64,000 bases of DNA from Bacilli bacterium (lineage in GTDB: Bacteria > Bacillota_I > Bacilli_A > RFN20 > UBA1709), in assembly GCA_050949315.1 (NCBI GenBank), contig JBMNFL010000001.1:384001-448000 (forward strand). The letters run 5' to 3'. Positions within the stretch are counted from its first letter, which is position 1. Every line of letters begins with the position of its first letter. The notes below the pieces were generated by a model. It worked only from the letters and a program-made list of their open reading frames with translations, was not told where the DNA came from and searched no databases. The position numbers and the translations under genes are program-made. This document shows positions 24,048 to 44,736 of this stretch, one piece after another.

Positions 24048-24049
24048 AA

Positions 24050-25282: not shown

Positions 25283-25461
25283 AATTACCTACTCTCCTTT
25301 CGGTGCATTATCTGTCTCCATATATTTTTTTGTAATATTTCTAGTGTCAGCGCCTGTGCTCCGCTCACTGGTGTGTTTTTTTCTAGTTATTTGGGTGCAA
25401 CAATTTCAAAATAGCTACGCTGAATTCTTAACTACAGCCACCGCAAGAGGAATTTAAAAAA

Positions 25462-26046: not shown

Positions 26047-26051
26047 CACCT

Positions 26052-28003: not shown

Positions 28004-28004
28004 G

Positions 28005-28778: not shown

Positions 28779-28790
28779 ATTTTACTCCTT

Positions 28791-29921
28791 TCAAATGTTA
28801 TGTTTTGAAAAAACATCAACTATATGTTCTGCTAAAAGAGAACCTTTATTTTTCCTGTAATAAACAAACAAATCATTCCCTTTTTTTGCAATGTTCTTTC
28901 CTAGGCTCTGCCCCTCAGCGGTTGATAAAAAATATAGAATTTTTTTGAAGTTTTGGAAATCCCAATCAATCGGAATATATGTTTCGTTTTCAATAAACAA
29001 ATTTGGAAATGTTTCAAGATGATTAACGGTTGGTTTGATCAAACAAGATCCAAACAAAAAAGCCTCAAAATCTCTATTACAAATTTCACCCCAACCAAAA
29101 GGACTAATTACAAACTTTGAACTTCTCATATTTAATTCATATGATTTTCTTGAAATCTTATTCCTTTCAACGATGTATTTGGAGTCATTGTATTGCTCCA
29201 CCTCAGAAAAAACTTTTAACCTTTGAAAAGAAATGGCGTTTTCTTCTTTCGGACAAGTCCCATTAAAAAATAGAGTAATGTTCTTTTCCTCAAAATCTGT
29301 ATAACGACCTTTTAAGTTAAGCGAATCTAGTGAAAGAAGTTTTTTAATTCTAGAAATCATTCCAGTTCGAATATTATTCCAAAAAGATATGTTCCATGAA
29401 ACATCTATTTTGCTTAGATTAGTAACATCGGCGATCCAAAAAACTTCTGTTTCATTTGAAGGAGCAGAAAGATGAAATGTTTTATAATAATAATCGGTAT
29501 GTATTCTTTGTCCCTTAAATTGATTGGTGTATAAATGCTTATCTTTTAATATTTGTTTCTTGAGATATAAGTCAACAACATCCAAAACGTCAAACATACA
29601 TGTACCTGTACTATCTGAACAATCCATCCACACCAGTTTGTTACATTTTTCTTTAATGTTCTCTAATATTAGCCGTCTTTGATCTGTGCCAATTCTTCCA
29701 AGTTCTGATTTGTGATGAATTGCTAAAACAACAATATCATATGACTTTTCTTTTTTTAATTGTGAGATAAGACTCTTTTTCAAAAAAATATTCACAATGT
29801 CGAGCCTTGAAAAATTAATATGATATCCAAGTTTTTTAAAATATTTCTTTGCCTCAAACAGAGGCTGCAACCAAGCAAATGTATAATATGTATTATCAAA
29901 AAAAACATGAATCTCTCTCAT
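28791..29921 (-). CDS. Putative glycosyltransferase (GT-B-like)
   Basis: SKFVISPFGWGEICNRDFEA motif resembles exostosin-like/GT-B C-terminal domains; locus context. Confidence 0.55.
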   Translation of the reverse strand: MREIHVFFDNTYYTFAWLQPLFEAKKYFKKLGYHINFSRLDIVNIFLKKSLISQLKKEKSYDIVVLAIHHKSELGRIGTDQRRLILENIKEKCNKLVWMDCSDSTGTCMFDVLDVVDLYLKKQILKDKHLYTNQFKGQRIHTDYYYKTFHLSAPSNETEVFWIADVTNLSKIDVSWNISFWNNIRTGMISRIKKLLSLDSLNLKGRYTDFEEKNITLFFNGTCPKEENAISFQRLKVFSEVEQYNDSKYIVERNKISRKSYELNMRSSKFVISPFGWGEICNRDFEAFLFGSCLIKPTVNHLETFPNLFIENETYIPIDWDFQNFKKILYFLSTAEGQSLGKNIAKKGNDLFVYYRKNKGSLLAEHIVDVFSKHNI

Positions 29922-29936
29922 AGCACACCTCATCCA

Positions 29937-31481
29937 TTAATTCTTTTTATTGTGTAATAATCCTAACACAAGTCCCTTGGCCTCTTTAAATTCTTTTGTC
30001 TTAAATAAAAACGCTAAAAACAAGACATTGGGCAAAACAACACATAGCAAACTCCTGATTATTATATTTAAAAAACCCTCAATTCTAATAAAATCGCATA
30101 GATGATAGGTCACAAACCCAACACAAATAGTAATTAAAAAGTACAGCAAATGTTTCAAATAAAACTCTTTAGGTGAAATATTGAAATAATGCTTGAAAAC
30201 AACATTAGTTCTGGTAATAAAGTTGAATACAAAAATAGTGATAATGGTGGCTAAAATAATACCTGTTATGCCAAGGAAATATCCCAACAATAAGTTCAAA
30301 ACCAGATTACCAACAGCTTCTAGCACAAACCATAATCTACATTCATGATACAATCCATTTCCTTCAAGAAACAAGTTCCTAGCATTATTCATATTCAAAA
30401 TATAAAAATATAAACATAACAGGAACATATCTAGCAGTGACAAAAGCATGTTGGTGTCTCCGCGCATCCACAAGAACATAAATGGTTGATATAAACAAGA
30501 CATCGTTATAGAGCACCAACCAACTATCCACATAAACAAAAAATTAAACTTTAAAAGATCTTTATAATTTTTAAGTTTTGTTTCTTTTGCAATGCTGTTC
30601 CCAACACTAGCTTGCATTGATTGGGTTAACACAAGCAAAATTCCATAGATAGCAGAAAAAATATAATAGTAATTGTCGTAGATAGCGACAGCAACTAGGC
30701 CCATAAAAAAAGAAATCATCACATCATCCAAAGAATTTCTTGCTACAGTTCCTAATTTCCCTACAAATAATGCTTTAACTTGCTTTATTATAACTCTATA
30801 AGTTTCTTTTGGAAGTTTCCCATTAGGAATTATTTCTGGAAAATATTTTTTTGAAAAAACTTGTAATAGAATGTTGTTGGCTACAGTTCCTAAAGGCATA
30901 ACCATTATAAACACATAATAGTTTCTCAAAAAAATTAATAGTAATATTTGGATGCCTTTGATAAAAAAACTGGTAACAGAATAAATGTTGCTGACAACAT
31001 CCTCCCTTTGCATCGCATTAAAAAGAGCTCCCTTATATGCAAACAAAAGATAGGATATTACCGTGTTAAAAAGATAAATAAGGAACAACAAATAAATATT
31101 AATGTCACTTGGTATTTCTCCAGAAATCAAATACGAGAGAAGCGGAGTAATTGCAAGACCAATTAACAATATTACTATTCCTACAATAAAATAAGTCTTC
31201 TTAAGAAAATTAAGGATAGCAGAGACACTTTCGTTATCTCCATCAGCGATTGGGCGGTACATTACAAAAGTAACCGCAGCAGTAAAGCCCAAATCCGTCA
31301 AATTCAAAACTTGTAAAATTGAAGAAAAAAGACCATTTAATCCCGAATAAGCCGTGCCAAGTGTATATATAATAATGGTTCTAATTATAAACGGAAGTAA
31401 AATTGATATTATTTGTTTTATCAATCCACTAACTATATTGCGCTTTGTATTCTTTATTCTAGATTTAGAAACTCTCTCCAT
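29937..31481 (-). CDS. wzx: Polysaccharide flippase (Wzx/MOP family)
   Basis: Many TM helices; GLNGLFSSILQVLNLTDLG, ASVGN. Confidence 0.85.
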   Translation of the reverse strand: MERVSKSRIKNTKRNIVSGLIKQIISILLPFIIRTIIIYTLGTAYSGLNGLFSSILQVLNLTDLGFTAAVTFVMYRPIADGDNESVSAILNFLKKTYFIVGIVILLIGLAITPLLSYLISGEIPSDINIYLLFLIYLFNTVISYLLFAYKGALFNAMQREDVVSNIYSVTSFFIKGIQILLLIFLRNYYVFIMVMPLGTVANNILLQVFSKKYFPEIIPNGKLPKETYRVIIKQVKALFVGKLGTVARNSLDDVMISFFMGLVAVAIYDNYYYIFSAIYGILLVLTQSMQASVGNSIAKETKLKNYKDLLKFNFLFMWIVGWCSITMSCLYQPFMFLWMRGDTNMLLSLLDMFLLCLYFYILNMNNARNLFLEGNGLYHECRLWFVLEAVGNLVLNLLLGYFLGITGIILATIITIFVFNFITRTNVVFKHYFNISPKEFYLKHLLYFLITICVGFVTYHLCDFIRIEGFLNIIIRSLLCVVLPNVLFLAFLFKTKEFKEAKGLVLGLLHNKKN

Positions 31482-31483
31482 TG

Positions 31484-32656
31484 TTAATCCTTTTTAGAAA
31501 CCAGTTTCTTAATTGCACCCTTTATTCTCGCGGTTAAGGAATAGCCTCCATATTTTTTTGCCGTTCTAACAAAGCCGTTTTTATAGTAATATTTCCAAAA
31601 TGAGTCATAAGAAGGAGGCATAATACTAGGGCTCGAAAGATTTGCTTGTTTCTTTTTTATTTTTTCAACTGACGTGTATATCCATTTAATGCCTGGTAAA
31701 TTCTCAACAAAATTCGCTCCTTTAACTGTGTGTGCTAAAACAGCAAAAACTCCATCTTCAGAAAAGAAGGCTTCTTCTTCATCTTTGCACCCCCAATAAT
31801 CAGCCATTGTTAAATCAGAAGGTTTATCAACTGTGGCATATGGACACTCATAGCAACAAGGTCTTAAGCAGTTATTTGAAAAGAACAGATTTAAAAATAG
31901 CCTGGCCTTGCTCGTATCGATTTCTTTTTTCTCGTTTTTTTGTTTATATAAATAGGTAATTGTGCAGCCATAATTCTTGCTACCATATCCCCATGGTTTG
32001 TTTTTGGTTCTAAACTCATATTTTACAAATTTTTTATTTTTCTTTAACCAACTAATATATTCACTGAATAGTTTAGGGGAAGGAGTTCCATGACAAATTA
32101 AATCAATAGTTATCAATCCTTCATCACTAATATGTTTTGCTTTTATGAAAGATTTTAATCCAGCTACATGACAAGAAGTTCCAAAAAAAGCAACTTTTTT
32201 CCCTAGTTTTAAGTCATCAAAAATTTCAAGAAATGTATTTTTTATATTTGTTTGAACATATTTTGATCCATATAAGGATTCAAGTTGACTTTGTGAATCA
32301 AATCTTTTTGTAATAACCTCATAGTTTGAATCATACTCAACACCATAGACTATTCCGCCATTTTGGATGACATATTTAGCAATCGCAACGGATACACCAC
32401 CAGATGATGATTTTCTTAATTCAATTGCATTCTCGTTTTTTACTGCAAACGCGATGGTCTTTGTACTACGTTCATCTTTTTTATTAAGACAAACATTTAA
32501 GCATTGACCACAACTAACACATTTTCTCTCATCAACCACAGGGTATAAAAAGCCTTGTTCATCCGCTTTAAACTCTATTGCTTTAGCAGGGCAAATTGCT
32601 TTGCACGCAGTACACCCATAACAACGTTCCTTACTAATCGTTAAGACATTATTCAT
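31484..32656 (-). CDS. Fe-S oxidoreductase of the FrhB/FdhB (F420 hydrogenase beta subunit) family
   Basis: Two CxxCxxCxxxC ferredoxin motifs, SSSGG, GSKYVQ, GTSCHV, DLICHGTPSP, LRPCCYEC, SDLTMADYWG. Confidence 0.85.
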   Translation of the reverse strand: MNNVLTISKERCYGCTACKAICPAKAIEFKADEQGFLYPVVDERKCVSCGQCLNVCLNKKDERSTKTIAFAVKNENAIELRKSSSGGVSVAIAKYVIQNGGIVYGVEYDSNYEVITKRFDSQSQLESLYGSKYVQTNIKNTFLEIFDDLKLGKKVAFFGTSCHVAGLKSFIKAKHISDEGLITIDLICHGTPSPKLFSEYISWLKKNKKFVKYEFRTKNKPWGYGSKNYGCTITYLYKQKNEKKEIDTSKARLFLNLFFSNNCLRPCCYECPYATVDKPSDLTMADYWGCKDEEEAFFSEDGVFAVLAHTVKGANFVENLPGIKWIYTSVEKIKKKQANLSSPSIMPPSYDSFWKYYYKNGFVRTAKKYGGYSLTARIKGAIKKLVSKKD

Positions 32657-33713
32657 CGTTTAAGATACCTTCTAAATATAAATAGGATTCATTTCTTAGA
32701 TTTTGTAGATTTGCATCTATTTTTTCCCAATCTAGTTTCGTTATTTGAGAATCCGTTATTTCCCTTCCGAGAATATTTAAATTTGACATAATAGTATTAA
32801 TTCTTCCAGGATGATTTCTATTGTAATAATAGAATTCTTTATGAAAATTTATAGAAAACAGCACTCCGTGGTAAGATCCAGTTATAACATATTCAGCATT
32901 ATGTATGAGCCAAATAAACTGACCAACAGTTACGTTTTTGACATTAATACAATATTTATTTTTTCTAACAGAATCATTTAAAAAAACGATAGGCATTTTT
33001 TTCTCATCGGCTAATTTCTTGGCAAAATTAAGTGTGATGTGCTTATCATCATCAAAGTACAGAAAAATATATTTTTTTTCAATGTCCATTGCTTCTTCAT
33101 ATTTTAACCATTCATCAGCAGAAAAAAGTAAAGTTGGGTCAAGAGTTACTATCGGTCTTTCCTTTAAATAGTTGTAAAGTAGATCTGCCCCTGAATTCTC
33201 TCTTGTACTTATTCTCTTATACTGTCTTAAATAAAAAATGGATTTTTCAGCAAAGATGGATGGAATTGTCTCATAACCAAAACTCGATGAATACGCAAAT
33301 TTTTTCCCATTATCCTCGACAAAAGCTAAATAATAATTGTAGTCACCACCGGTTACGTTAAGTTCCCAAATTATATCGCTACCAGAAATAAATAAATCAT
33401 ATATTTCGTTGCTTTTTTTTATATTTTTTGAGTTGTATTTTCGTTGGGACATTAAACAATTGGTTTTTAAAAAATGTTTTATCAGTTCGCGCTTTTTCAT
33501 TTTAAAAATGTAACTGATAAGTGTAATTGGTAACTTAATGATTCCATTACTAAATAATCGCAAACCAAATTCTCTTTTTTTTATTTCTTTGCAAAAATAT
33601 TGAATTGTTTCGCATTTATACCCTAAATTGTTTATGTATTTTGTCAATGCAAAACATTGTAAACATGCACCATAATTCGTAGTATCTTGAAATGTTAAAA
33701 TTCCTATTTGCAA
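32649..33713 (-). CDS. Polysaccharide pyruvyltransferase family protein
   Basis: NYGACLQCFAL, GSDIIW, ISTRE, DPTLL, SYHG. Confidence 0.88.
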   Translation of the reverse strand: MQIGILTFQDTTNYGACLQCFALTKYINNLGYKCETIQYFCKEIKKREFGLRLFSNGIIKLPITLISYIFKMKKRELIKHFLKTNCLMSQRKYNSKNIKKSNEIYDLFISGSDIIWELNVTGGDYNYYLAFVEDNGKKFAYSSSFGYETIPSIFAEKSIFYLRQYKRISTRENSGADLLYNYLKERPIVTLDPTLLFSADEWLKYEEAMDIEKKYIFLYFDDDKHITLNFAKKLADEKKMPIVFLNDSVRKNKYCINVKNVTVGQFIWLIHNAEYVITGSYHGVLFSINFHKEFYYYNRNHPGRINTIMSNLNILGREITDSQITKLDWEKIDANLQNLRNESYLYLEGILNDE

Positions 33714-33718
33714 TTCAA

Positions 33719-34480
33719 CTACCTCCTTAATATTTGTGATACTTTATTTTTTGCTGATCCAAACAATAAATGTAATTTTTCAAGTATTTTTTGAATCACA
33801 AATAATCTTGGTTTTACATTCAAGATATCTTTAAATGGCACTATTCTATTATGATATTTTTCGCAAAATGCTTCCAATTTAAAATACTCAGCTTCCTTTT
33901 CGGGTTTTCTCCACTCACTGGGATGACACACAATAGAATTAATCCCATTTTTCACTTTGCGTGGAACTCCGCCGTTCTTGCATGGAATGCAAATTATACC
34001 TTGCTGACGATATGGGAAAGGTGATCCTCCATCACAATTATAAACAAAACCATTTTCTTTTAATGCTCTCAGAGTCGTTTTGTCATATGAATGCGCGGGG
34101 GCAAAAAAAACATTTGTGAATATATTGTTTTCTTGGAGTATCCTTTTCCCTTGTAATATTTTATTATTTTGATTGTCAAATGAATTCCCAGCAAATTCTG
34201 AATGTTTGTAACCACACATAATTGTTTTTGCCTTTTTTTGATCGTATACATGTTTATAACCATGGAGAGCGATGGTCCAACCAAAATCCTCCAATTGTTT
34301 TAAAAACTTCCAAAAATCATCTTTTGGATTATTTATTTTCTGATCATCATCTTCATTATCAGGAATCACACCAATAAGCGGCTTTAATTTATATTTATCC
34401 ATTAACTCTTTAGCCCTCTCAAACTGTTTCCAATCCATCGTAGGACAAATATCATCAAAACGTATGTAACAAATTTTCAT
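33719..34480 (-). CDS. DUF2334 / polysaccharide deacetylase-like protein
   Basis: IRFDDICP, IGVIPD, LHGYKH, SEFAG, FFAPAHSYD. Confidence 0.75.
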   Translation of the reverse strand: MKICYIRFDDICPTMDWKQFERAKELMDKYKLKPLIGVIPDNEDDDQKINNPKDDFWKFLKQLEDFGWTIALHGYKHVYDQKKAKTIMCGYKHSEFAGNSFDNQNNKILQGKRILQENNIFTNVFFAPAHSYDKTTLRALKENGFVYNCDGGSPFPYRQQGIICIPCKNGGVPRKVKNGINSIVCHPSEWRKPEKEAEYFKLEAFCEKYHNRIVPFKDILNVKPRLFVIQKILEKLHLLFGSAKNKVSQILRR

Positions 34481-35598
34481 TAATACTCACCTTTTATAAT
34501 ACGCTCATACATGTTAATAAGCTTTTTTGTAACATTCTTTAAATCGAAACAAGATAAATCTTTATTGTTTGGACCTGTACTATTCGATAGTGCGAGTTCC
34601 GCCCATTTATCATCGCCATTAAAAAGAGACAACGAAAAGCAATTACTATTACATAAAACTTCACTTGGAACATTATCTGAAACAATAGACCTAATTCCAA
34701 GAGCTTGCGCTTCAAGTGATACAAGAGAAAAACTTTCAGATAAAGATGGTAAAATTAAACAATTGGCACATCCTAAGATAGATGTTGCATCTTGCCTAAT
34801 GCCCAAAAATAATATATTATTAGCAATTCCACGCTTTTTTGCTTCGTTTTTTATGATTTCCATTCTATTGTTGGCATCGCCACCAATAAGCAAAAGATAA
34901 GAGTTGCTATTGCGTTTATGAATCTCTGCAAATATAGACAATAATCTCTCATGATTTTTCACTTTATCAAATCTGCCTATATGCATAATAACAAAAGCAT
35001 CCTTGGCTATATAATAATTAACAAACAACCATTCACGATTATACCGGCTTTTTTTAATTCTTTCAATATCTATACCATTAGGGATAACACACACATTTTT
35101 CGTGGAGAAAATGCTGATTATTTTATCTTTCATATAATTTGTTAATGCAAAAAAATTAAGTCCTTTTTTCGACATTTTGTTCAAAGCAATACTATTCTTT
35201 TTGGGATTTGTTTTTAAAAATCTTTCTGGATCAGAATGAAATGTGAAAACCATCCTATGAACAGGGAACTTTATTCCATATATTTTGTAAATTAAAGTGT
35301 GGATATGAATTATATCCGGTTTTTCAAATTCAACGATCCTATTAAACTTTAACTTAATATTCTTAATTCTATTTAGCAGTCTTTGAAAAATGAAATGGCC
35401 GTTGTTTGTGCTTGTTTTATATAATTCGTATATCCTAATGTCGTTTTTAGTTACCTCGTTTTCTAAATAAGAATTAACTTTATTATTCACAACAAGAGCA
35501 ACATCAATTTCACTATTCTTTAAATGAACCAAATAATCGGCAACTATTTTTTCCGCACCGCCTATTTGCAAGTTATGGATATAAAAAAGAATTTTCAT
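34480..35598 (-). CDS. GT4 glycosyltransferase
   Basis: GGAEK, HIGRFDKVKNH, PSLSESFSLVSLEAQA. Confidence 0.88.
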   Translation of the reverse strand: MKILFYIHNLQIGGAEKIVADYLVHLKNSEIDVALVVNNKVNSYLENEVTKNDIRIYELYKTSTNNGHFIFQRLLNRIKNIKLKFNRIVEFEKPDIIHIHTLIYKIYGIKFPVHRMVFTFHSDPERFLKTNPKKNSIALNKMSKKGLNFFALTNYMKDKIISIFSTKNVCVIPNGIDIERIKKSRYNREWLFVNYYIAKDAFVIMHIGRFDKVKNHERLLSIFAEIHKRNSNSYLLLIGGDANNRMEIIKNEAKKRGIANNILFLGIRQDATSILGCANCLILPSLSESFSLVSLEAQALGIRSIVSDNVPSEVLCNSNCFSLSLFNGDDKWAELALSNSTGPNNKDLSCFDLKNVTKKLINMYERIIKGEY

Positions 35599-36833
35599 GC
35601 AATCTCTCCAACTTCATTATTACCAACACTTTTCTTTTCTGCCATCTGAATGTAAATATGCCCAAATAAAAAGATTACAAAATAAGTGGCAATAAAAATA
35701 CCAGGCCTTTGATATACACTAAGAAAGAAAACTACAGTAAAACAGAAATTGAACCAATTATTTTTATATTTAGCTAAGGCATACAATAACAAGCTACCAT
35801 ACATTAGAATACATCCAACAAAGCCATAGTCAATAATCATTGTTTTATATGTTGAAACTCCAGAAGTTAATTGTGATGAATAACCTCCTCCATATCCAAA
35901 CAAAACTTTATCGCTTTGAAATAAAGAAGAAAAAGCACTGTCTAGAAGAACATTGGATCTGTCGTTACCAAAAAATCCTCCACCGGAAAGCGTTATTCGT
36001 TGAACTAAATAGTCTAAAGCATAATTGTTAAAATTGATTTTTGGAAGAATGAAAAAATAGAATATCATGAATAAAATAACTAACAATAAAACGCTTTTTT
36101 TCTTAATGGAAATTAAAGAAATATAGATGGCAAGAATTAATAAAAACGCAAGAGAGAAGCTTAAGCATCCTCCAATAAAAATAATCCAATTTGTTATTCT
36201 TTTAAAATTCGCTTTGTCTAAACAAATTAACAAAGCACAAACTGTACCTAAAAAACCAGGTTCATTAAAAAGCCCGCACAATCTTACTTGAACAGATTTA
36301 ATATAAATAAAAGAAACCCCATAATTAGCATAGTATTGTTCTCCAAAAAGAGAAGAATAATAAGGCACTATTTTGTAAGGAAGCCCAAGTTTGAAAAAGT
36401 AAGCAATATAACAAACTATACCCAAGAAACAAATTATCACCATATATTTTCTAAATAGTTTAATAACTCCAAGCCCTAAATCTCTCGGCACAAGAAAAAT
36501 ACATATCAAAATGATGATATTAAGCAAACTTAATTGAAGTTGCTCTCTTCCATAAACGTTAAATGTTGTAATAAACCAATAAACAATAGGTATTAAAACA
36601 CCTACATCAATTTTTTTATGATTTGTTATTAAACCAATAATCAAAATAACAGTTAGCAGATAACTAAGAATTCTAGTGACACTTCTAAATGCATCAGAGC
36701 CTAATGTACTATCAGCTTGATATGGAGCAAGACTAACAATAATTGCTAATAACGTGCAGGCAATTACTATCATCTTTTGATTTAAAGTATTAGTTTTCAA
36801 TTCTTTCGGTAATAACATGTTATTATTCTCCAA
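35595..36833 (-). CDS. wzy: Polysaccharide polymerase (Wzy-like)
   Basis: About 10 TM helices, RLCGLFNEPG loop, LFGYG; locus position. Confidence 0.72.
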   Translation of the reverse strand: MENNNMLLPKELKTNTLNQKMIVIACTLLAIIVSLAPYQADSTLGSDAFRSVTRILSYLLTVILIIGLITNHKKIDVGVLIPIVYWFITTFNVYGREQLQLSLLNIIILICIFLVPRDLGLGVIKLFRKYMVIICFLGIVCYIAYFFKLGLPYKIVPYYSSLFGEQYYANYGVSFIYIKSVQVRLCGLFNEPGFLGTVCALLICLDKANFKRITNWIIFIGGCLSFSLAFLLILAIYISLISIKKKSVLLLVILFMIFYFFILPKINFNNYALDYLVQRITLSGGGFFGNDRSNVLLDSAFSSLFQSDKVLFGYGGGYSSQLTSGVSTYKTMIIDYGFVGCILMYGSLLLYALAKYKNNWFNFCFTVVFFLSVYQRPGIFIATYFVIFLFGHIYIQMAEKKSVGNNEVGEIA

Positions 36834-37908
36834 AAACGGCTTTCACAAAACTAGTACATACATCATCAATACCATATCCGTTTATTTTCAAACAATTATT
36901 AAATGCAAAACGATCTTCGTTTTTTACAATTAGTTTTGCCCATTTTTGAGGCAAATCATTTTTTAATGAAGCAAATGAAACTAAACTGCTCATTCTTACT
37001 TCATTTGTTATGGTATCAGAAAGTAAACATGGAAGATTTGAGGCTTGTGCTTCAATTATTACATTTGGCATCCCTTCGTACAATGATGGTAAAACCATAA
37101 AATCCATTGCTGACAACAGTTTAAATACATCATCTCTCAGACCGGCAAAGAGCACACAATCTTCTAAGCCACGATCTAATACAGTTTTTTTAATCTGTTC
37201 TTGCAATGAGCCTACTCCAACTAACATCAAAAGAGAATTAGCATTTAACTTATGGTATTCGTCAAATACATCAATTAAAAAAGCGTGGTTTTTTTGCTTT
37301 TCAAATCTTCCAATATGCCCAATAAGCATTGTATTATCTCTGATCTGCATTTGGTTTCTAACAATTTTTCGATACGATTCATTATAACTAAATGTGTTTA
37401 AATCCAACCCATTATTTAGAATAATCACACCATCTGTAGAATTGAATGTATATTTGGCAGCTTTTTTTGATGGTGCTATTTTTATGTCTATGTACTTCAT
37501 CCACATTTTTTTACCAATAATATGAAATATACGTTGTTTAACACTATTTCCATCACTGGAGTTGCTTGATCTAGCGGCGCATACTTTAGCTCCTGCTTTT
37601 TTTGCAACTTTTAAATCATAAAAACCGCCAGCATTAGATGTAATTCTAAGAACGTATTCATAGTTATGTTCTCTTACAATCTTATATAATTGCTTTCTAA
37701 AAGAAAAAAAGTTTTCTGTTTTCGAGGGAATCCTATATATTGTCGAACCATAAGATGTGATTTCATCATCATAATCACATTTGTCAAAAACATTAATACA
37801 AAAATCAATCATATACTTAGTTCTATCAATGTTTCTGAGTATTTTCATCATGAATGTTTCTGCACCACCAACATTCGTACTGTTCATAATACAAAGGAGT
37901 TTCTTCAT
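36823..37908 (-). CDS. GT4 glycosyltransferase (EpsF-like)
   Basis: GGAETFMM, GHIGRFEKQKNH, PSLYEGMPNVIIEAQA. Confidence 0.88.
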   Translation of the reverse strand: MKKLLCIMNSTNVGGAETFMMKILRNIDRTKYMIDFCINVFDKCDYDDEITSYGSTIYRIPSKTENFFSFRKQLYKIVREHNYEYVLRITSNAGGFYDLKVAKKAGAKVCAARSSNSSDGNSVKQRIFHIIGKKMWMKYIDIKIAPSKKAAKYTFNSTDGVIILNNGLDLNTFSYNESYRKIVRNQMQIRDNTMLIGHIGRFEKQKNHAFLIDVFDEYHKLNANSLLMLVGVGSLQEQIKKTVLDRGLEDCVLFAGLRDDVFKLLSAMDFMVLPSLYEGMPNVIIEAQASNLPCLLSDTITNEVRMSSLVSFASLKNDLPQKWAKLIVKNEDRFAFNNCLKINGYGIDDVCTSFVKAVFGE

Positions 37909-37945
37909 TAAAACACGCTCTTTCTTATCAATTTGTTACTTTAAG

Positions 37946-38995
37946 TTATCCAATATGCTTGGTTAACACTTTTACACACTTTTCAACAGAATACTCCTTG
38001 GAAGATGACAAACAATTATATCGCATCGACTCATATTCTTCTCTATCTATATTTAACGCCCGAAAAAGAGTCTTTTTAAAATCATCAATGTCATCAATTT
38101 CAAAAAGAAAACCATTAAAACCATCTTCCATAATATCTGAGCAAGAATTCCATCTAGAAGCAATAACAGGTACCCCAGCATAAAATGAATCAATTATAGA
38201 ACCTGGTATGCCTTCTGTTTTAAATCTTGTTGGAAAAAGTTGGTAAGCGTATTTCGAAATAATTTCAACAGATTCAAATGCGTTAACGACCCCGCAATAC
38301 TTTATATATTGGTCGTTAGAAATCATATCGTTAATTCTATTTAAATAGTCTGAATCAACAGGGCCATATATATCAAACTTTATTTTTTTATCCATCAATT
38401 TGTTGTTTTCTTTCACTACCAAAATAGCATCTTCTATGCCTTTCATTTTAACCACTCTTGAAAAAAAACAAATACTTATTGGATTGTTTATGAATTCGTC
38501 ACAATTAATGTTGTTGTTTGTTCTTAATTCTTTGAAATTTTTCAATATTTCGGTGTTTAAAACACCTATCTCTTTTAGTTCTTTTTTTAGTACATTAGTT
38601 TCAACAAAAACAACATCCAATCTTTTACATATCTTTTTAAGTCTTTTTTTACGTTTAAGTTTTTCTGCAAGCCAAGCGCCGACGACACAGTAGAATAGTT
38701 TGTTTTTAGAAAACTTTGAAAGATAATAAAATAAAGGCAGTATTACTTTTACTCCATTTTGGTCTGGAAGCATCACGATGTTTTCACAAGTAAAACTCAT
38801 TTTAAAAATTTGTAGTAATAATTTAATTGGTCTTTTTTTCCAAATATGAGTGCTTGAGCTATATATTTTTTCCTTGCCATATATACTAATTAACTCGTTC
38901 AACAGAGAGATGGTTTTAAGAGTTTGGCCATTCTCCCCTGCAACATTTCTATCTAAATGTCCACAAAAACCGATTTTGTATTTCTTCATAATCAT
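37946..38995 (-). CDS. GT4 glycosyltransferase
   Basis: GQTLKT, FFSRVVKMKG, FPT..TEGIPGSIID. Confidence 0.82.
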   Translation of the reverse strand: MIMKKYKIGFCGHLDRNVAGENGQTLKTISLLNELISIYGKEKIYSSSTHIWKKRPIKLLLQIFKMSFTCENIVMLPDQNGVKVILPLFYYLSKFSKNKLFYCVVGAWLAEKLKRKKRLKKICKRLDVVFVETNVLKKELKEIGVLNTEILKNFKELRTNNNINCDEFINNPISICFFSRVVKMKGIEDAILVVKENNKLMDKKIKFDIYGPVDSDYLNRINDMISNDQYIKYCGVVNAFESVEIISKYAYQLFPTRFKTEGIPGSIIDSFYAGVPVIASRWNSCSDIMEDGFNGFLFEIDDIDDFKKTLFRALNIDREEYESMRYNCLSSSKEYSVEKCVKVLTKHIG

Positions 38996-39004
38996 ACCTT
39001 GATC

Positions 39005-40162
39005 TTATTGCTGTAAGATCTCATATCCCTCAAGCATTTTGTTCCAATCATAAAAACTTTTTACCAATTCAAATCCTTTATTAGACATATTGTTTCTTAA
39101 AACTTTGTTCTCTAAAAGTTCCAAACAACAATCAATATATTCATTTACATCATCAACAATAAAACAATTTGAACCATTTACTAAACCAGGTATCCCAAAA
39201 GAAATCAATTTCGAAATAACTACTGGAATATGATACGACATCGCTTCTAAAACTTTATTTTGTAGGCCTGCGGCAATTCTTATTGGTATAACCGATAAAC
39301 AAGCATCACAGACAACTTGATAAATATCTTCAACATAGCCTGTCACAAAAATGTTTTTCCCATTGTCCAAACTTCTTATTCTTTGATTCGGCTCAGAGCC
39401 AATGATATAAAATCTTAAATCAGGCTTTTTTTCCAATAAATGAGGAAATATTTCTTCAACAAAATACAAAACCGCATCTTGGTTCTGCAAAGCCCGCATA
39501 TTCCCAACAAAAACTATTTTATTATTGTCATACGGGTGTGCTTCTTCATGTACGATATCCCTTCCATTAGGATAAACAAATAACGATGGGTGATTATTTA
39601 AATATTCCTTATCTGCATTTGATACCAAAACTATTTTTCTATAAGTTTTCAAAAGATACCTTTCATATTTCACAATTCGTTTTTTTTCAATTAAATATGC
39701 TAATTTTTTCCAAGAGTTATATGATGATGAGGTAACCAATGAATATGTTTTAGATAAGGCATCAGACATTTCAATTATACTTTGATCTTGAACATTAATT
39801 TTTTCCAAATACCACACCATTCTATGTGTATGAGAAATATACAAATCAGGTTTCTCTATGTTTTTAACCCTTTTCAATAGTTTCAAAAACTTATTAGAGC
39901 AATAATATCCATATTGAAGAGGCTTTCCTGCAAAAAAAGAGCAAATAGTCCTAAAATACGAAGTTAAACGCGATCTTTTAATTTTATATATTGAATCGTA
40001 TAATCCTTCTTCATCGATACAAGACATACCATCCTCATAGAAAGATACGAGACAAACTATATGACCCTTCTTTTTCAAATATCTAGTAATATGATTTATT
40101 CTCAATACATCTCCTGCCGCCTCAGGAAAAGGATATCTAGGAGCTAAAATACAAATTTTCAC
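39005..40162 (-). CDS. GT4 glycosyltransferase
   Basis: RYPFP..GDVLR, FVGNM..N.DA, GLQNKVLEAM. Confidence 0.85.
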   Translation of the reverse strand: MKICILAPRYPFPEAAGDVLRINHITRYLKKKGHIVCLVSFYEDGMSCIDEEGLYDSIYKIKRSRLTSYFRTICSFFAGKPLQYGYYCSNKFLKLLKRVKNIEKPDLYISHTHRMVWYLEKINVQDQSIIEMSDALSKTYSLVTSSSYNSWKKLAYLIEKKRIVKYERYLLKTYRKIVLVSNADKEYLNNHPSLFVYPNGRDIVHEEAHPYDNNKIVFVGNMRALQNQDAVLYFVEEIFPHLLEKKPDLRFYIIGSEPNQRIRSLDNGKNIFVTGYVEDIYQVVCDACLSVIPIRIAAGLQNKVLEAMSYHIPVVISKLISFGIPGLVNGSNCFIVDDVNEYIDCCLELLENKVLRNNMSNKGFELVKSFYDWNKMLEGYEILQQ

Positions 40163-40197
40163 TTATTATTCCACCTCAATAAAAGTTGATTAGCAAA

Positions 40198-40844
40198 TTA
40201 TTGATTGCTAATCTTATTATCTTTTTCAGTCTGTTTATGCATTTCACCTGTCCCGCCTTCAACAACACCCTCGTGCTTGAAAACAGAAAATGCGGTTTTA
40301 AACAGCAAACCTATATCATAGAAGAAACCTCTCTTCTCTATATACTCGCCATCAAACTTTGCTTTAACAGGAATTTCTAATTCGTCACGACCAGAGATTT
40401 GTGCTAATCCTGTCAATCCCGGTTTCACTTCGTTCGCGTTGTATTTATCCCTTTCAGCAACCAAGTCATCCTGATTCCATAAAGCCGGCCTAGGACCAAC
40501 AAAACTCATCTGACCGACAAATATGTTAAAGAACTGTGGAAGTTCATCTAATGAAGTTTTTCTAATAAATTTACCCACCTTCGTGATATGCGAATCTGCA
40601 TTCCCTAATTGATGGGTGGGTGCATTTGGGTTCGTATCCGTATACATTGACCTAAACTTCAGTATCTTGAACATCTTCTTATTCTTTCCAATCCTATCTT
40701 GCTTGAAGAAAACCGGTCCCTTGCTGTCTATTTTGATGGCAATCGCCACAATCAGCATTGGGAGGGACAGGATGATTATTGCCAAGAACGAGCAAAATAT
40801 ATCAAAGCACCTTTTGAAAAACGAATATATTGGTTTTTTTTCAT
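40198..40844 (-). pseudogene. Priming sugar-phosphate transferase (small PGT family), frameshifted at an A8 tract just after the start codon
   Basis: KFRSM, RKTSLDELPQ, MSFVGPRP, KPGLTG. The SD-preceded ATG at 40844 is out of frame by one A relative to the paralog at 49142-49762. Confidence 0.75.
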
Positions 40845-41261
40845 TTTCTAAAACTCCACTTACAAAATCATGTCTAAACAGAACATTTTCTTTACATTCA
40901 GTACTCTATAACCGATAACAAGCTCCCATATAATTTTTCGCCAGCAAATTTAACGCATAAATATAAGACTGAAATACAACTGGAAAGAGTAAATGCGTAT
41001 TTTACTCTAGTAAATTCTGTTGCGATTTTTTCTAATTAATTAGCATTATCTCCAGCAGTTATCATTAAATTTTTATCAAATACTTCAATCATTCACTTGA
41101 GTTCATCACCATGCGTTGTTAGTAAAGTAAAAGAAACTTTATTTTCAAAAGGTTTCATATCGTTTTTATTTTTATAAATTTCTTTTTCTTCGTTTCTGAA
41201 CATAAACATAAAACATATTAAACATTTCATTATTTTATTTACATTCAACCGACTAATGAAA

Positions 41262-43169
41262 TTAATTGTAATCCATTGGTTTCTTAAAAGTTGGCACGAG
41301 ATGATGGAGAATTTCTCTAATCTTTTCCTCGGAACCAGAATTTACGCCATCAATAAGTTTTTTTATCTTTTCTTTCAATTCTTCTAATTTTAACGCCTTA
41401 TCTTTTTCAATAAAAATGAGTTTGTTTTCTGTAGCAGTTAGTTCTTCGGTTTTGATAAGCAATTCTTCATACAATTTCTCACCAGGACGTAGACCTGTTT
41501 CAATAATTTCTATATCCTTTCCTAATTCATAACCACTTAGGGAAATCATGTTCTCCGCTAAATCTAAAATTTTGACAGGTTTGCCCATATCCAAAACAAA
41601 TAATTCCCCATCTTGAGCTAATGCCCCAGATTCTAAAACAAGCTGACTTGCTTCAGTAATAGTCATGAAATAGCGTGTAACTCTTTTATCCGTTATTGTA
41701 ATGGGGCCTCCGCTAGCAATTTGCTTTTTAAATAAAGGAATAACCGAACCAGCACTACCTAAAACATTTCCAAAACGTGTGGATGTAAACACCGTTGTTG
41801 ATGGTGTAGCAGCGTAAGCTCCAACTATCATTTCACACATTCTCTTAGTTGCCCCCATAACATTTGTTGGGTTAACGGCCTTGTCAGTAGAAATCATTAT
41901 GAAATGTTCAACACCATATTTATCTGATAATTCAACACAATTTAAAGTCCCAAAAATATTGTTTTCTACTGCTTCAATACAGTTATGTTCCATTAGAGGT
42001 ACATGTTTATGAGCGGCGGCATGTAAAACAATTTGGGGATGATAAGTAATAAATACTCGCTCCAGAGCTGAACGATTACAGATAGAGAGAATCTCGACAC
42101 GGAGATCTAGTTTTTCACCGTATTTTATTTTTAAATTCTGCTGAACATCATAAACACCATTTTCATAAATATCTAAAATAATAAGTTGTTTAGGATTCAT
42201 CCCAGCAATCTGCCGACAAAGTTCACTTCCAATTGAACCGCCTCCACCAGTAATTAGAACCACCTTATCTTTATAATAACTTTTAGCTTTCTCGCTCAAT
42301 ATATTAATTTCTTCCCTAAACAATAACTCATCAATATCAAAATCTCGCAACTGTTTGCGTCCTTGCGAACCATGTTGAATAGTTGGATAATCATAGGTCT
42401 TAATCTTGAAACCAAAAGCTTGGTAATGATAATAAAGTTTTTGTCTTTCCTCTACTCGCAACTGAGGCAAAGCAAAAACAATCTCTTGAATTTCGTAATT
42501 ATTGAGCAACTCTTTGCTAATATTTCTTCCATCCAACACTGGCAACCCCTCAATTGTTCGCCCAATTTTTTCACTACTTATGTCAATAAAACAGCGAGGT
42601 ATATATGACGCGTTAACATTGTTCAAAAGTTCATCAGCCAAACTAACACCAGTTTTTCCAGCACCCACAATGGCAATTCTTATTAAATGCTCACTTTTAA
42701 TTAAATCAACTCTAACCTTATTAAAAGTGAAGATTTTTAATAATAAGCGCATTAATTTGCTCAAACGATTATCACGATTGCAACACTTATAAGTATAGCG
42801 ATAAAACATTCTCATCATTAAAACCATGAGCAAATCAACACAAAAATAAGAAAGCATCGTCATAAAAGAAATTTTTACAATCGGTAAAAATGGTACTACC
42901 AAATAAAACAAAATGAAAGCACAACCATCAGCCACCATTAATTTTATATAACACTGGATGCCACCATAGCGCCAAATCTGACGATAAATTCTGAAAAGAA
43001 ATCGGAAAAAGAAAATAAAAACAAAAGCAGCCAACAAGTGATAAAAATCATCAATCTTATTAAATGATTCTAATAAAAAGAAAAGTGAGGCTATTACTAG
43101 CAAAACTACTAAATCATAAACAACCAAAAGCCACTTAATACTATTTAACTTTTTAGCTCTCTTTTTCAT
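41262..43169 (-). CDS. Membrane-anchored UDP-sugar 4,6-dehydratase (CapD/PglF/WbpM family)
   Basis: N-terminal TMs, TGGGGSIGSELCRQ, HAAAHKHVP, ISTDKAVNP, RFGNVLGS, GLRPGEKLYEEL. Confidence 0.92.
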   Translation of the reverse strand: MKKRAKKLNSIKWLLVVYDLVVLLVIASLFFLLESFNKIDDFYHLLAAFVFIFFFRFLFRIYRQIWRYGGIQCYIKLMVADGCAFILFYLVVPFLPIVKISFMTMLSYFCVDLLMVLMMRMFYRYTYKCCNRDNRLSKLMRLLLKIFTFNKVRVDLIKSEHLIRIAIVGAGKTGVSLADELLNNVNASYIPRCFIDISSEKIGRTIEGLPVLDGRNISKELLNNYEIQEIVFALPQLRVEERQKLYYHYQAFGFKIKTYDYPTIQHGSQGRKQLRDFDIDELLFREEINILSEKAKSYYKDKVVLITGGGGSIGSELCRQIAGMNPKQLIILDIYENGVYDVQQNLKIKYGEKLDLRVEILSICNRSALERVFITYHPQIVLHAAAHKHVPLMEHNCIEAVENNIFGTLNCVELSDKYGVEHFIMISTDKAVNPTNVMGATKRMCEMIVGAYAATPSTTVFTSTRFGNVLGSAGSVIPLFKKQIASGGPITITDKRVTRYFMTITEASQLVLESGALAQDGELFVLDMGKPVKILDLAENMISLSGYELGKDIEIIETGLRPGEKLYEELLIKTEELTATENKLIFIEKDKALKLEELKEKIKKLIDGVNSGSEEKIREILHHLVPTFKKPMDYN

Positions 43170-44523
43170 CCATAACTCTCTTTCTTTCAACAAAACGATT
43201 TTTGGTTTCTATCATTCTGGTTTTAAAAATTTTGTTGCCATCTAAAATTAAATTAACAAGCATAGCTAAAACTAATGATCCCAAGAAAGCAAGTGCACCA
43301 CTTTTGATTAAATTCAAATCAGAAATTGTCTCTAATACACTTGTTTTATCATAATAAACAATGGAATTATCTTTAACAACTTCTTTAGCAATATCCACAA
43401 ATTCTTCGCTTATTAAGACTAAATCGTTGTATCTTTTGTCCAGTTCGGCTGTAAAATCAGCAACTTCTTCCTGATAAGTTGGATCTGTATCAAATTTTAC
43501 TTTGTTGTCAATTTTCTTTTGAATGATTTCAAGTTCATTTTCAAAATCTCTGATTTCTGTAGTATATTTGATTATCTCTTCGTTATACTTTGTCAACTCA
43601 AGTGTATAAAGCGAACCAGCGGAAGCTAATAGATTGTCTCTTTGTAATACTAAATCATCGCGTTTATTGGTACTCAAAGTTTTTTCCTTTATGTAATGCT
43701 CTTTCATAGCCTCTAGTTGTTCCATATAGCCATCATAATCATAAACATAACCTTTGTGCCGCAACTTATTACCTAGAACACTTAATGGATAATTTTTGAA
43801 ATGACTTTCAACCGCTAGTTTAACCATTGAAAGCTTACGTCCATCTTTTAAATAAATATCGTTATAATTGTTGATTAGATTGCCATAATTATCTTCAATC
43901 AAGGCTAATTGTTTTACCAAATACTCAAGTTTATCCTCATAAATATCAGATTTTTCATACAATTTTAAATAACTCATATAATCAGTTTGATCAACTATAT
44001 TATTGATTTTTACATTTGGCTCGTTAGCAATGGCTTGAGCTAAAACCACCGCCTGTTCACGAGTTAAGTATTTACCCTTGAAAACAATTCTATACCCTTC
44101 TCTATCAACTTCATATTCTTTCTTCCCACCCACTGTAGAATCAATGCCAGGAATTTCACGCATTATGGTTTCAAATTTATACGATTCTATGGCGCCTTTA
44201 TCGTAAATTTTTTTCATATCTAAAACTTTTAATTCTTCATACTGGCTTTGATATTCTTCAAGTTTTTCCAATGTAATTGTTTCACGAATATCAAAAATTG
44301 AACCATCTATATACTTACCCTCTTTTAAACAATTCACATTATAATTATGCATTCCTTCATATGTGATTTTGTTTTTACTTTGCAATAAAATAAAAGCACA
44401 GGCGCAAATAAAAGTTACTAAAGTGACAATAATAAATAACCTTATTCGACCAAACAAAACGACCATTACATCAGCAAATGAAATTTGTTGTGACACTTGA
44501 TGTACATTTTCTTGATTATTCAT
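43153..44523 (-). CDS. Wzz-like polysaccharide co-polymerase / chain-length protein
   Basis: N- and C-terminal TM helices around a long coiled coil; first gene of the operon. Confidence 0.6.
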   Translation of the reverse strand: MNNQENVHQVSQQISFADVMVVLFGRIRLFIIVTLVTFICACAFILLQSKNKITYEGMHNYNVNCLKEGKYIDGSIFDIRETITLEKLEEYQSQYEELKVLDMKKIYDKGAIESYKFETIMREIPGIDSTVGGKKEYEVDREGYRIVFKGKYLTREQAVVLAQAIANEPNVKINNIVDQTDYMSYLKLYEKSDIYEDKLEYLVKQLALIEDNYGNLINNYNDIYLKDGRKLSMVKLAVESHFKNYPLSVLGNKLRHKGYVYDYDGYMEQLEAMKEHYIKEKTLSTNKRDDLVLQRDNLLASAGSLYTLELTKYNEEIIKYTTEIRDFENELEIIQKKIDNKVKFDTDPTYQEEVADFTAELDKRYNDLVLISEEFVDIAKEVVKDNSIVYYDKTSVLETISDLNLIKSGALAFLGSLVLAMLVNLILDGNKIFKTRMIETKNRFVERKRVMDEKES

Positions 44524-44701
44524 AAATAATCCCCCAAAATATTTTAAATTTTTTAGCAATTTCCCGATTTTTGCGATGCCTACGGCGAGCGATGGTAACC
44601 ATCGTTAGATAACTATCTCCTCTTAAACAACTGAAAGTGCGCCAGGCTTCAATAGTTGTTGAAGATTCATGCTCGCGAAAAAAGGCGAAAATGCTTTCGT
44701 C
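44524..44701 (-). ncRNA. Candidate structured 5' leader RNA of the polysaccharide operon
   Basis: GC-richer UTR with nested stems (GCGAG/CTCGC, AACAACT/AGTTGTT, AGAT/ATCT, CGATGG/CCATCG) between the promoter and the ATG. Confidence 0.6.
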
Positions 44702-44707
44702 TTTTAA

Positions 44708-44736
44708 ATCATAAATGATTTAGTCCAAATAGTCAA
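44708..44736 (-). promoter_or_regulatory. Sigma-A promoter of the polysaccharide operon
   Basis: Minus strand TTGACT-17 bp-TATGAT. Confidence 0.75.

What the first reader, a model, noticed from the sequence alone, without database searches (positions are those of the whole stretch)
44524..44736. Multi-stem leader RNA heading the polysaccharide operon: candidate antitermination element or switch
Seen: a clean promoter predicts a ~178-nt 5' UTR that folds into a four-way junction. P1 is GCGAG/CTCGC (44672-76 with 44585-89). A long P2, TCTT.AACAACT/AGTTGTT.AAGA, is capped by GAAGCCTGGCGCACTTTC. P3 is AGAT-AGTT-ATCT and P4 is CGATGG-TTA-CCATCG. A downstream GCATCGC can replace the P1 3' strand and a GCC-GTA-GGC hairpin overlaps it, so alternative folds exist. 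Known: long polysaccharide operons often need processive antitermination (ops/RfaH, UpxY, LoaP, EAR RNA). No NusG paralog is in the window, and I cannot match this to EAR or a riboswitch class by eye. Inference: an undescribed or poorly described cis RNA controlling about 20 kb of genes.
Basis: partly seen in the sequence, partly recalled or inferred. Interest (0 to 1): 0.7.

Follow-up and report, generated by a model that had tools for sequence, protein, structure and literature searches.

The report
LoaP-type antitermination leader of polysaccharide operon
The untranslated leader in front of this 25-kb sugar-coat operon carries a conserved RNA hairpin that in related bacteria sits just upstream of the gene for the anti-termination factor LoaP, so it is most likely the loading site for that factor, which this genome encodes far away.

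Summary
It is no more stable than shuffled sequence, and a model of the whole junction found nothing in 149 related genomes.

Two parts are conserved. P2 (44667-44619, cap GAAGCCUGGCGCAC) is homologous to a capped hairpin lying 87-125 nt upstream of loaP in the closest LoaP relatives. A covariance model built from 12 such leaders, without this one, hits the leader as the best match in the 1.01-Mb genome. It scores 26.9 bits (E 0.018). No match in 149 other genomes of the order reaches that score.

P4 plus GCC-GUA-GGC matches a "hairpin + ops-like GNA mini-hairpin" module. That module lies upstream of loaP in 32 of 77 loci.

The genome encodes one LoaP (NCBIfam NF033641, above cut-off), 340 kb from the leader.

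Best reading: this is a LoaP-type recruitment leader acting in trans, not a riboswitch. P1, P3 and the alternative folds have no support. The leader has no UNCG tetraloop and no leader terminator, and neither LoaP binding nor the TSS has been shown.

Rfam has no such family. An earlier scan note records an undescribed conserved leader at a LoaP-headed capsule cluster in another genome.

The parts
44708..44736 (-). Promoter-like site: -35 TTGACT (44736-44731), 17-nt spacer, -10 TATGAT (44713-44708). The predicted start is about 44701.
   Evidence: 10 of 12 consensus matches. The start site is not mapped. An RNA-library contig of run X2 covers 44542-44685, which does not prove transcription.
44678..44705 (-). 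Weak hairpin AAAAG-ACGAAAG-CAUU-UUCG(C)C followed by U6, at the very 5' end of the predicted transcript. It may be the terminator of the upstream LigT/heptose genes or a 5' stem-loop.
   Evidence: -5.4 kcal/mol, z = -1.78; the only sub-threshold Rfam match (STnc40, 31.9 bits against a gathering score of 45) is this terminator-like shape. The terminator scan did not call it.
44619..44667 (-). This is the LoaP-leader hairpin.
   Evidence: Model R2 was built from 12 loaP leaders of other species. It scores this site 26.9 bits: E 0.018 over the genome with the next hit at 15.7 bits, and E 0.0011 over the window. The best score in 149 other genomes of the order is 23.5 bits. The 14-nt cap is identical to that of L101. 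The hairpin forms in the MFE and centroid folds of the full leader.
44607..44618 (-). P3 mini-hairpin AGAU-AGUU-AUCU. Not supported.
   Evidence: The near-identical copy L054 has G44617 changed to A, which breaks a G-C pair. No counterpart was seen in relatives.
44590..44604 (-).
   Evidence: 10 of the 11 leaders folded (this one included, L095 the exception) have a hairpin of unrelated sequence at or just 5' of the mini-hairpin. The strain in run X3 changes the closing G-C to G.U.
44576..44586 (-). ops-like GNA mini-hairpin element GCC-GUA-GGC-AU.
   Evidence: The core GCGNAGC/CCGNAGG lies within 130 nt upstream of loaP in 32 of 77 unique loci, against 5.6% expected (binomial p 3e-20). GCCGTAGGC lies 16-30 nt before loaP in L062/L123, L119 and L126. 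It occurs only 4 times on both strands of this genome. Compare the nontemplate-DNA hairpins GCGGTAGC (E. coli ops) and YGCGNAGCR (Bacteroides opsX) quoted in PMC11685472.
44671..44676 (-). P1 5' strand GCGAGC, which pairs with 44590-44585. It closes the proposed four-way junction. Not supported.
   Evidence: It forms in the MFE fold of the core. Junction model R1 has no match better than E 0.06 per genome in 149 genomes. The 3' strand overlaps the conserved flank of the ops-like element.
44521..44535 (-). Ribosome-binding site GGGGG (44535-44531) and ATG (44523-44521) of gene 1.
   Evidence: Read. The site is unpaired in the MFE fold.
43153..44523 (-). Gene 1: a 456-aa protein with two hydrophobic ends and a coiled middle, like a polysaccharide chain-length regulator. 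It has no Pfam family.
   Evidence: Homologs lie directly downstream of loaP in L126 (36.6% identity, E 5e-73), L113 and L114.
19006..43193 (-). The rest of the polysaccharide locus: CapD-like protein, priming sugar transferase, glycosyltransferases, pyruvyl transferase, flippase and nucleotide-sugar enzymes. It ends at strong terminator-like hairpins at 19001-18977 and 18952-18928.
   Evidence: Pfam scans; terminators.

Best explanation
The 178-nt leader is a LoaP-type antitermination leader.

Its P2 hairpin has a long interrupted stem capped by GAAGC-loop-GCAC. It belongs to a hairpin class that stands about 90-125 nt upstream of loaP genes in related Bacilli.

About 30 nt downstream of P2 comes a second conserved module: a hairpin of free sequence (P4), immediately followed by an ops-like GNA mini-hairpin (GCC-GUA-GGC).

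Proposed mechanism, by analogy with Bacillus velezensis dfn:
1. The nascent P2 hairpin binds the genome's single LoaP protein, which here is encoded in trans 340 kb away.
2. The downstream module slows RNA polymerase so that the complex can load.
3. The modified polymerase then reads through weak or NusA- or Rho-dependent stops along about 25 kb of polysaccharide genes.

Shown: homology of P2 and of the downstream module to loaP leaders, presence of loaP, and the operon context.

Inferred: LoaP binding, pausing, antitermination and the start site.

The four-way junction is probably incidental.
For: 1. A LoaP is present. There are two NusG-domain genes in the genome. The 175-aa one scores 134 bits on NF033641, cut-off 125, and scores below cut-off on the NusG, RfaH and UpxY models.

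2. LoaP is rare in this group. 4 of 151 genomes of the order and 7 of 399 of the class score over cut-off.

3. Hairpin class. Of the 19 closest LoaP loci (L098-L116), 17 are hit by R2 at E <= 1, and 12 of those 17 are its training set. L113 has the cap and a 7-bp stem by pattern only. L115 has none. The cap pattern lies within 200 nt upstream of loaP in 30 of 77 unique loci, against an expected fraction of 0.086.

4. Independent test. R2 was built without this leader. It hits 44667-44619 at 26.9 bits. This is the best hit of the genome (E 0.018, next hit 15.7 bits), and no match in 149 other genomes of the order reaches it (best 23.5 bits).

5. Structure. In 23 of 23 leaders the MFE fold puts the cap at the tip of a hairpin with 9-16 enclosing pairs, against null means of 3-7. 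On the model-fitted alignment A6, 94.8% of cells pair against 81.5% in shuffles (0 of 500 shuffles reach it), 9 of 14 pairs change on both sides, and slid controls pair 34-51%.

6. Downstream module: 32 of 77 loci, p 3e-20. Its architecture is shown.

7. Gene context in relatives. CapD-like genes about 50% identical to the one here flank loaP in 31 loci, and gene-1 homologs follow loaP in 3 loci.

8. Published model. In B. velezensis a leader hairpin is essential for LoaP action and a downstream pause assists it (PMC12691694, passages read).
Against: 1. There is no UNCG-loop hairpin with a stem of 4 or more pairs in the leader or in any intergenic part of the locus. So the published defining loop type is not met.

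2. There is no terminator-like site in the leader downstream of P2. Terminator-like sites inside the operon are not clearly above chance: 8 against 8.4 expected, and 14 against 5.8.

3. loaP is not adjacent to the operon. It follows a GlmU-like gene in a glycerol-utilisation gene row.

4. A profile of the ops-like element alone did not rank this site among the top 40 matches in the genome. The canonical core is also missing from the 19 closest LoaP leaders, which carry a degenerate ...CGAGCAUGC... there.

5. R2's E-values are rough because calibration was short, and alignment A6 is fitted to the model.

6. No homolog of the leader was found by DNA search in 60 relatives. The upstream regions of 16 distant gene-1 homologs show only short leaders.

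7. The papers that show the dfn hairpin sequence are not held. I could not tell whether the cap is the same motif or a different one.
Confidence: 0.72

Rival explanations
1. This is a relic leader. The hairpin and the ops-like module are left over from an ancestral arrangement of leader-loaP-chain-length regulator, as in L126. After loaP left the locus they no longer do anything, and the operon is read from a plain promoter.
For: In relatives the module lies directly in front of loaP. In L126 the order is leader, loaP, gene-1 homolog. Here 45 extra nt separate the ops-like element from the ribosome-binding site. No terminator in the leader needs suppressing.
Against: The genome keeps an intact full-length LoaP (NF033641 positions 1-164 of 166, no stops). 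It has only one R2 match, at the head of the window's large polysaccharide locus. The cap and stem are intact. In a 1.01-Mb genome, dead sequence is usually lost (general knowledge, not tested).
Confidence: 0.12
2. One reading: a four-way-junction RNA (P1-P4) that senses a ligand or factor and switches between alternative folds.
For: The junction is the MFE fold of the 96-nt core. CAUCGC occurs twice, so P4 and P1 have alternative partners (read).
Against: Fold stability is not above chance (z -1.40, and +0.25 for the whole leader). Junction model R1 has no match in 149 genomes. There is no Rfam match. P3 is broken in L054. There is no terminator or ribosome-binding-site-sequestering platform. 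The P1 3' strand lies in the conserved flank of the ops-like element.
Confidence: 0.06
3. The capped hairpin is a conserved leader element of these capsule loci that serves a factor other than LoaP, such as a processing site, an mRNA stabiliser or the binding site of another regulator. It merely travels with the locus.
For: Binding was not tested. The cap has no UNCG loop. Part of the cap (CGAAGC) resembles the ops-like core itself, so a DNA-level role is possible.
Against: Its position is tied to loaP rather than to any one polysaccharide gene. CapD-like genes lie upstream of it in some loci and downstream in others. It is found here in one of the few LoaP-bearing genomes of the order.
Confidence: 0.1

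Closest known systems
LoaP antitermination leaders of the Bacillus velezensis dfn and mln operons (PMC12691694; Goodson 2017 and Elghondakly 2021, 2024 are cited there but not held)
   Same: A NusG paralog of the LoaP family. A small leader RNA hairpin upstream of a very long biosynthetic operon. A second element downstream of the hairpin: a pause site in dfn, and a hairpin plus ops-like element here. LoaP genes are often next to polysaccharide operons.
   Different: The cap is GAAGC-(2-5 nt)-GCAC on a long interrupted stem. No UNCG loop was found. There is no leader terminator. loaP is 340 kb away rather than adjacent. This LoaP scores just above the family cut-off (134 against 125), while other class members score 175-191 bits and carry a different leader box.
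RfaH/ops of Enterobacteria and UpxY/opsX of Bacteroides (PMC11685472)
   Same: A short GC stem with a G-N-A type loop in the leader (GCGGTAGC; YGCGNAGCR). In Bacteroides it is preceded by a pause hairpin, giving a multipartite site of about 40 bp at the head of capsule operons.
   Different: Here the stem letters are swapped (GCC-GTA-GGC). The protein scores far below the RfaH cut-off (27.9 against 144.5) and the UpxY cut-off (47.4 against 100). An additional capped RNA hairpin lies upstream. Nontemplate-DNA recognition by LoaP has not been shown, and PMC12691694 reports only nonspecific ssDNA binding for the sequences it tested.
EAR RNA of Bacillales eps operons, and riboswitch classes in Rfam
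   Same: A structured RNA associated with a polysaccharide operon, proposed to promote read-through.
   Different: No match to any of 4227 Rfam models at gathering score, nor at E <= 10 apart from a terminator look-alike. None of 17 loaP loci of relatives matches at E <= 0.1.

Membership tests
LoaP-dependent leader (B. velezensis dfn/mln type) | A LoaP-family NusG paralog is encoded in the genome | tested here: met
   NF033641 at 134 bits, cut-off 125; this is the second of two NusG-domain genes, at G000:C1:87757-88284.
LoaP-dependent leader (B. velezensis dfn/mln type) | loaP lies next to its target operon (usual, not obligatory) | tested here: not met
   loaP is about 340 kb away, behind a GlmU-like gene.
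LoaP-dependent leader (B. velezensis dfn/mln type) | A small leader RNA hairpin with a UNCG-type tetraloop | tested here: not met
   there is no UNCG loop with a stem of 4 or more pairs in the leader or in the locus's intergenic DNA. The dfn hairpin sequence itself could not be seen, so a looser 'UNCG-type' fold of the cap cannot be excluded.
LoaP-dependent leader (B. velezensis dfn/mln type) | An intrinsic terminator in the leader downstream of the hairpin | tested here: not met
   0 terminator-like sites in 44300-45100. There is no U-run after P1, P4 or the mini-hairpin.
LoaP-dependent leader (B. velezensis dfn/mln type) | Further terminators inside the long operon | tested here: inconclusive
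   8 found against 8.4 expected in 18700-38000, and 14 against 5.8 in 38000-52000. All are weak.
LoaP-dependent leader (B. velezensis dfn/mln type) | LoaP binds the hairpin and read-through depends on it | not testable with these tools
   This needs binding and reporter assays.
   26.9 bits, the best hit of the genome, and no match in 149 other genomes of the order reaches it.
   the cap is identical to that of L101. It has 7 consecutive enclosing pairs plus the outer UCUU/AAGA helix.
ops / opsX nontemplate-DNA hairpin (RfaH, UpxY) | GCGGTAGC or YGCGNAGCR in the leader, with a cognate RfaH or UpxY | tested here: not met
   The element here is GCCGTAGGC. The paralog is below the RfaH and UpxY cut-offs. 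The motif wording comes from PMC11685472.
Rfam families (EAR, riboswitches, JUMPstart-type) | A match at the family's gathering score | tested here: not met

The most novel reading that the evidence does not exclude
A subgroup of LoaP proteins, found in small-genome gut and rumen Bacilli, may use a bipartite recruitment site unlike the published one. The first part is an RNA hairpin with an invariant GAAGC...GCAC cap. The second is a downstream ops-like GNA mini-hairpin behind a pause hairpin. This combines the RNA mode reported for LoaP with the nontemplate-DNA mode of RfaH and UpxY. In this genome the site works in trans for a factor encoded 340 kb away.
Probability: 0.3. Interest if true: 0.65.

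Novelty: new variant of a known kind. Interest (0 to 1): 0.55.

Why it matters
LoaP is the only NusG paralog reported to be recruited by RNA, and its site is known from two operons of one Bacillus species.

A conserved, covarying hairpin class with an invariant cap sits in front of loaP genes in about 30 of 77 species-level loci. A strongly enriched ops-like element lies downstream of it. Together they would give a testable recognition code for a large, uncultured branch of the family. They would also connect the LoaP mechanism with the RfaH and UpxY mechanisms.

For this genome, the finding explains how a 1-Mb bacterium could control its single large capsule-type operon. It also assigns a target to an otherwise orphan loaP gene.

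Tried and rejected
- Rfam. The gathering-score scan of the whole window found nothing in the leader. The permissive scan of 44300-45000 found only a terminator look-alike (STnc40, below its gathering score).
- DNA search with the 341-nt leader region in 60 relatives found only short AT-rich chance matches.
- Gene-1 homologs in 18 of 300 genomes of the order (21-33% identity) have short, unrelated upstream regions.
- Junction model R1 found nothing in 149 genomes.
- The metagenome scan with gene 1 gave one near-identical copy (L054) and one distant locus. The genome-contig scan with gene 1 found nothing.
- UNCG-hairpin scans of the locus and of the whole genome (37 intergenic hits, mostly terminators and rRNA) gave no candidate LoaP site.
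- The 7-mer TAGGCAT occurs 132 times in the genome against 128 expected, so I dropped it as evidence.
- A loose 'hairpin + core' descriptor hit 64 of 209 cores, which is too permissive.
- An nhmmer profile of the ops-like element found no significant hit in the genome, and this site was not in its top 40.
- RNAalifold on the MAFFT alignment A4 gave no consensus structure because the stems are out of register.
- A simple 'consecutive pairs next to the cap' test gave 5 or more pairs in only 12 of 29 leaders.
- Sequencing runs. Three runs hold parts of the stretch as contigs only. They show no start, end or expression level, and parts without cover mean nothing.
- Goodson 2017 and Elghondakly 2024 are not held. 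A title-phrase search for Elghondakly 2021 returned only papers that cite it.

Full report
**What is there.**
The finding lies on the minus strand. A promoter-like site, TTGACT-17-TATGAT (44736..44708, 10 of 12 matches), would start transcription near 44701. That is 178 nt before the ATG at 44523 of a 456-aa gene with no Pfam family, whose product looks like a polysaccharide chain-length regulator.

About 25 same-strand genes follow, down to 19006. They encode a CapD-like protein, a priming sugar transferase, glycosyltransferases, a pyruvyl transferase, a flippase and nucleotide-sugar enzymes. Strong terminator-like hairpins close the row at 19001-18928. Upstream, also on the minus strand, are heptose-pathway-like genes and a LigT-like gene that ends at 44834.

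**The observation.**
The four-way junction is the minimum-energy fold of the 96-nt core (-24.6 kcal/mol), but 17 of 200 shuffles fold at least as well (z -1.40). The whole leader has z +0.25.

GC content is unremarkable: 44.6%, and 22% of intergenic 92-nt windows are as GC-rich or richer. Rfam gives nothing.

A covariance model of the whole junction (R1) found no match in 149 other genomes of the order (best E 0.06 per genome). A DNA search in 60 relatives found nothing real. Upstream regions of 16 distant homologs of gene 1 have short, unrelated leaders.

A near-identical metagenome copy, L054, has 3 differences in 663 nt. One turns a G-C pair of P3 into A.C. A related strain seen in run X3 turns the closing G-C of P4 into G.U. 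So the junction as a unit has neither energetic nor comparative support.

**The lead that changed the picture.**
The genome is 1.01 Mb in one contig and has two NusG-domain genes. The second is 175 aa, at G000:C1:87757-88284. It scores 134 bits on NCBIfam NF033641 'antiterminator LoaP' (cut-off 125) and is below cut-off on the NusG, RfaH and UpxY models. It follows a GlmU-like gene in a row of glycerol-utilisation genes, 340 kb from the leader.

LoaP is rare in this group. It scores over cut-off in 4 of 151 genomes of the order and 7 of 399 of the class.

In B. velezensis, LoaP needs a small leader RNA hairpin described as UNCG-type. A downstream pause helps, and LoaP overrides a NusA-dependent leader terminator (PMC12691694, passages read). 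No UNCG hairpin exists in this leader or locus.

**Leaders of other loaP genes.**
A scan of species-representative genomes with an alignment of five LoaP proteins (A3) returned 80 loci.

In the closest ones (L098-L116, 40-50% identity) a motif GAAGCC-NNN(N)-GGCAC lies 87-108 nt before loaP. More distant loci carry GAAGC-(2-4 nt)-GCAC, and a few carry AAAGC-UAG-GCAU. The cap of P2 in our leader, GAAGCCUGGCGCAC (44650-44637), is identical to that of L101.

In 23 of 23 leaders, ours included, the MFE fold puts the motif at the tip of a long interrupted hairpin. There are 9-16 enclosing pairs, against 3-7 on average when the flanks are shuffled. Singly, only 5 of 23 reach p < 0.05.

The cap pattern occurs within 200 nt upstream of loaP in 30 of 77 unique loci, where the control rate predicts a fraction of 0.086.

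**Independent test.**
I built model R2 from a gap-free alignment of 12 such leaders, without ours (A5).

Over the whole genome it hits 44667-44619 at 26.9 bits (E 0.018). The next hit scores 15.7 bits. Over the window with filters off, E is 0.0011 and the next hit scores 12.4 bits. In 149 other genomes of the order the best score is 23.5 bits. That search used stricter filters and scored 40 candidates per genome.

On the model-fitted alignment of 18 matches (16 distinct rows):
- 94.8% of cells pair, against 81.5% in shuffles; 0 of 500 shuffles reach the observed value.
- 9 of 14 pairs change on both sides.
- Slid controls pair 34-51%.

The alignment leans towards the model and the sequences are related, so these figures are supportive, not proof. 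R2 is narrow. It does not reach the more distant cap variants.

**The second module.**
In 10 of the 11 leaders folded (ours included, L095 the exception), a hairpin of unrelated sequence stands at or just before a GC mini-hairpin with a G-N-A loop. Examples are GGC-GAA-GCC, GGC-GUA-GCC and GCC-GUA-GGC.

The core GCGNAGC/CCGNAGG lies within 130 nt upstream of loaP in 32 of 77 unique loci, against 5.6% expected (binomial p 3e-20).

Our P4 (CGAUGG-UUA-CCAUCG) followed by CUCGCCGUAGGCAU fits this module. GCCGTAGGC stands 16-30 nt before loaP in L062/L123, L119 and L126 and occurs only 4 times in this genome.

The shape resembles the nontemplate-DNA hairpins GCGGTAGC (E. coli ops) and YGCGNAGCR (Bacteroides opsX, which is preceded by a pause hairpin), as quoted from PMC11685472.

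Against this reading:
- A profile of the element alone did not rank our site.
- The 19 closest LoaP leaders lack the canonical core.

**Gene context.**
CapD-like genes about 50% identical to ours flank loaP in 31 loci, upstream in some and downstream in others. Homologs of gene 1 follow loaP directly in L126 (36.6% identity, E 5e-73), L113 and L114.

The usual order is therefore leader, loaP, polysaccharide genes. Here the leader is joined directly to gene 1, and loaP sits elsewhere.

**Reading.**
The leader is a LoaP-type recruitment leader. P2 is the conserved hairpin. P4 plus GCC-GUA-GGC is the conserved downstream module. P1, P3 and the alternative pairings are unsupported.

LoaP binding, pausing, antitermination and the start site are inferred. 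There is no leader terminator, and terminator-like sites inside the operon are not clearly above chance. What LoaP would override here is unknown.

The weak hairpin plus U6 at 44705-44678 may end the upstream genes or may be a 5' stem-loop. I could not decide between these.

**Known or new.**
No Rfam family matches this leader or 17 loaP loci of relatives.

In the held library, searches for LoaP with 'hairpin', 'tetraloop', 'ops-like' and 'capsular polysaccharide/leader' returned no paper whose listing or read passages describe this cap or an ops-like element in LoaP leaders. Of the papers listed, I read passages of four only.

The three primary LoaP papers are not held, and supplements are closed. 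The cap could therefore be the published motif under another description.

Earlier notes of this scan report LoaP hairpins and an 'undescribed conserved leader' at a LoaP-headed capsule cluster of a rumen bacterium. A look-up by sequence found no look-alike.

I rate this as a new variant of a known kind.

Noticed in passing
window 40898-41341 (minus strand), between the CapD-like gene and the sugar transferase: About 420 nt of broken reading frames lie here. Their translation (..LEKIATEFTRVKYAFTLSSCISVLYL..) looks like the N-terminus of a DegT-type aminotransferase interrupted by stops. This would be a decayed gene inside the operon. The family name is from recall and was not scanned.
   Followed up: partly
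G000:C1, outside the window: 64099, 201791, 244419, 256527, 583023, 658936, 1003639: An identical 34-nt stretch (A-rich, then GTAGGCATC..TATAAT) recurs at 7 places in the genome. It may be a repeated promoter or a mobile-element end.
   Followed up: no
L090, L091, L092, L096, L097; also L139, L142, L154: LoaP genes that score highest on NF033641 (159-191 bits) share a different leader box, AATCGTCGC-N4-T(G)TCGCGTT, about 80 nt before the GGCGAAGC mini-hairpin. This may be the recognition element of that LoaP subgroup.
   Followed up: partly
many loaP leaders, e.g. L064, L091, L092, L119, L133: The ops-like mini-hairpin is often followed after about 6 nt by a run of 4-6 U, a pause- or terminator-like arrangement just before the loaP ribosome-binding site. 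Our leader and L062 have a run of A there instead.
   Followed up: no
window 44521-44607 (minus strand): A 28-codon open frame (MVTIARRRHRKNREIAKKFKIFWGIIYE) starts inside P4 and ends 4 nt after the ATG of gene 1. It has no well-spaced ribosome-binding site and is probably chance. Read by eye.
   Followed up: no
G000:C1:86745-88284 (L032): loaP starts 2 nt after a 336-aa GlmU-like gene that matches only positions 1-327 of GlmU models of about 450 positions. It lies in a row with glycerol kinase-like and glycerol-3-phosphate dehydrogenase-like genes (those names were judged from length and first residues and were not scanned). This is an unusual home for a LoaP gene.
   Followed up: partly
window 17932-18912 (+) and 58539-58907 (-): An array of 10 tRNA genes lies just beyond the operon's terminators, and a tmRNA gene lies further on.
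   Followed up: no
G000:C1:109149-109167 (minus strand): A second ops-like site, GGCGTAGGCTACC, shares 11 letters with the L062 element. It lies about 38 nt before a 305-aa membrane-protein gene. It has no capped hairpin, since R2 gives no hit there.
   Followed up: partly
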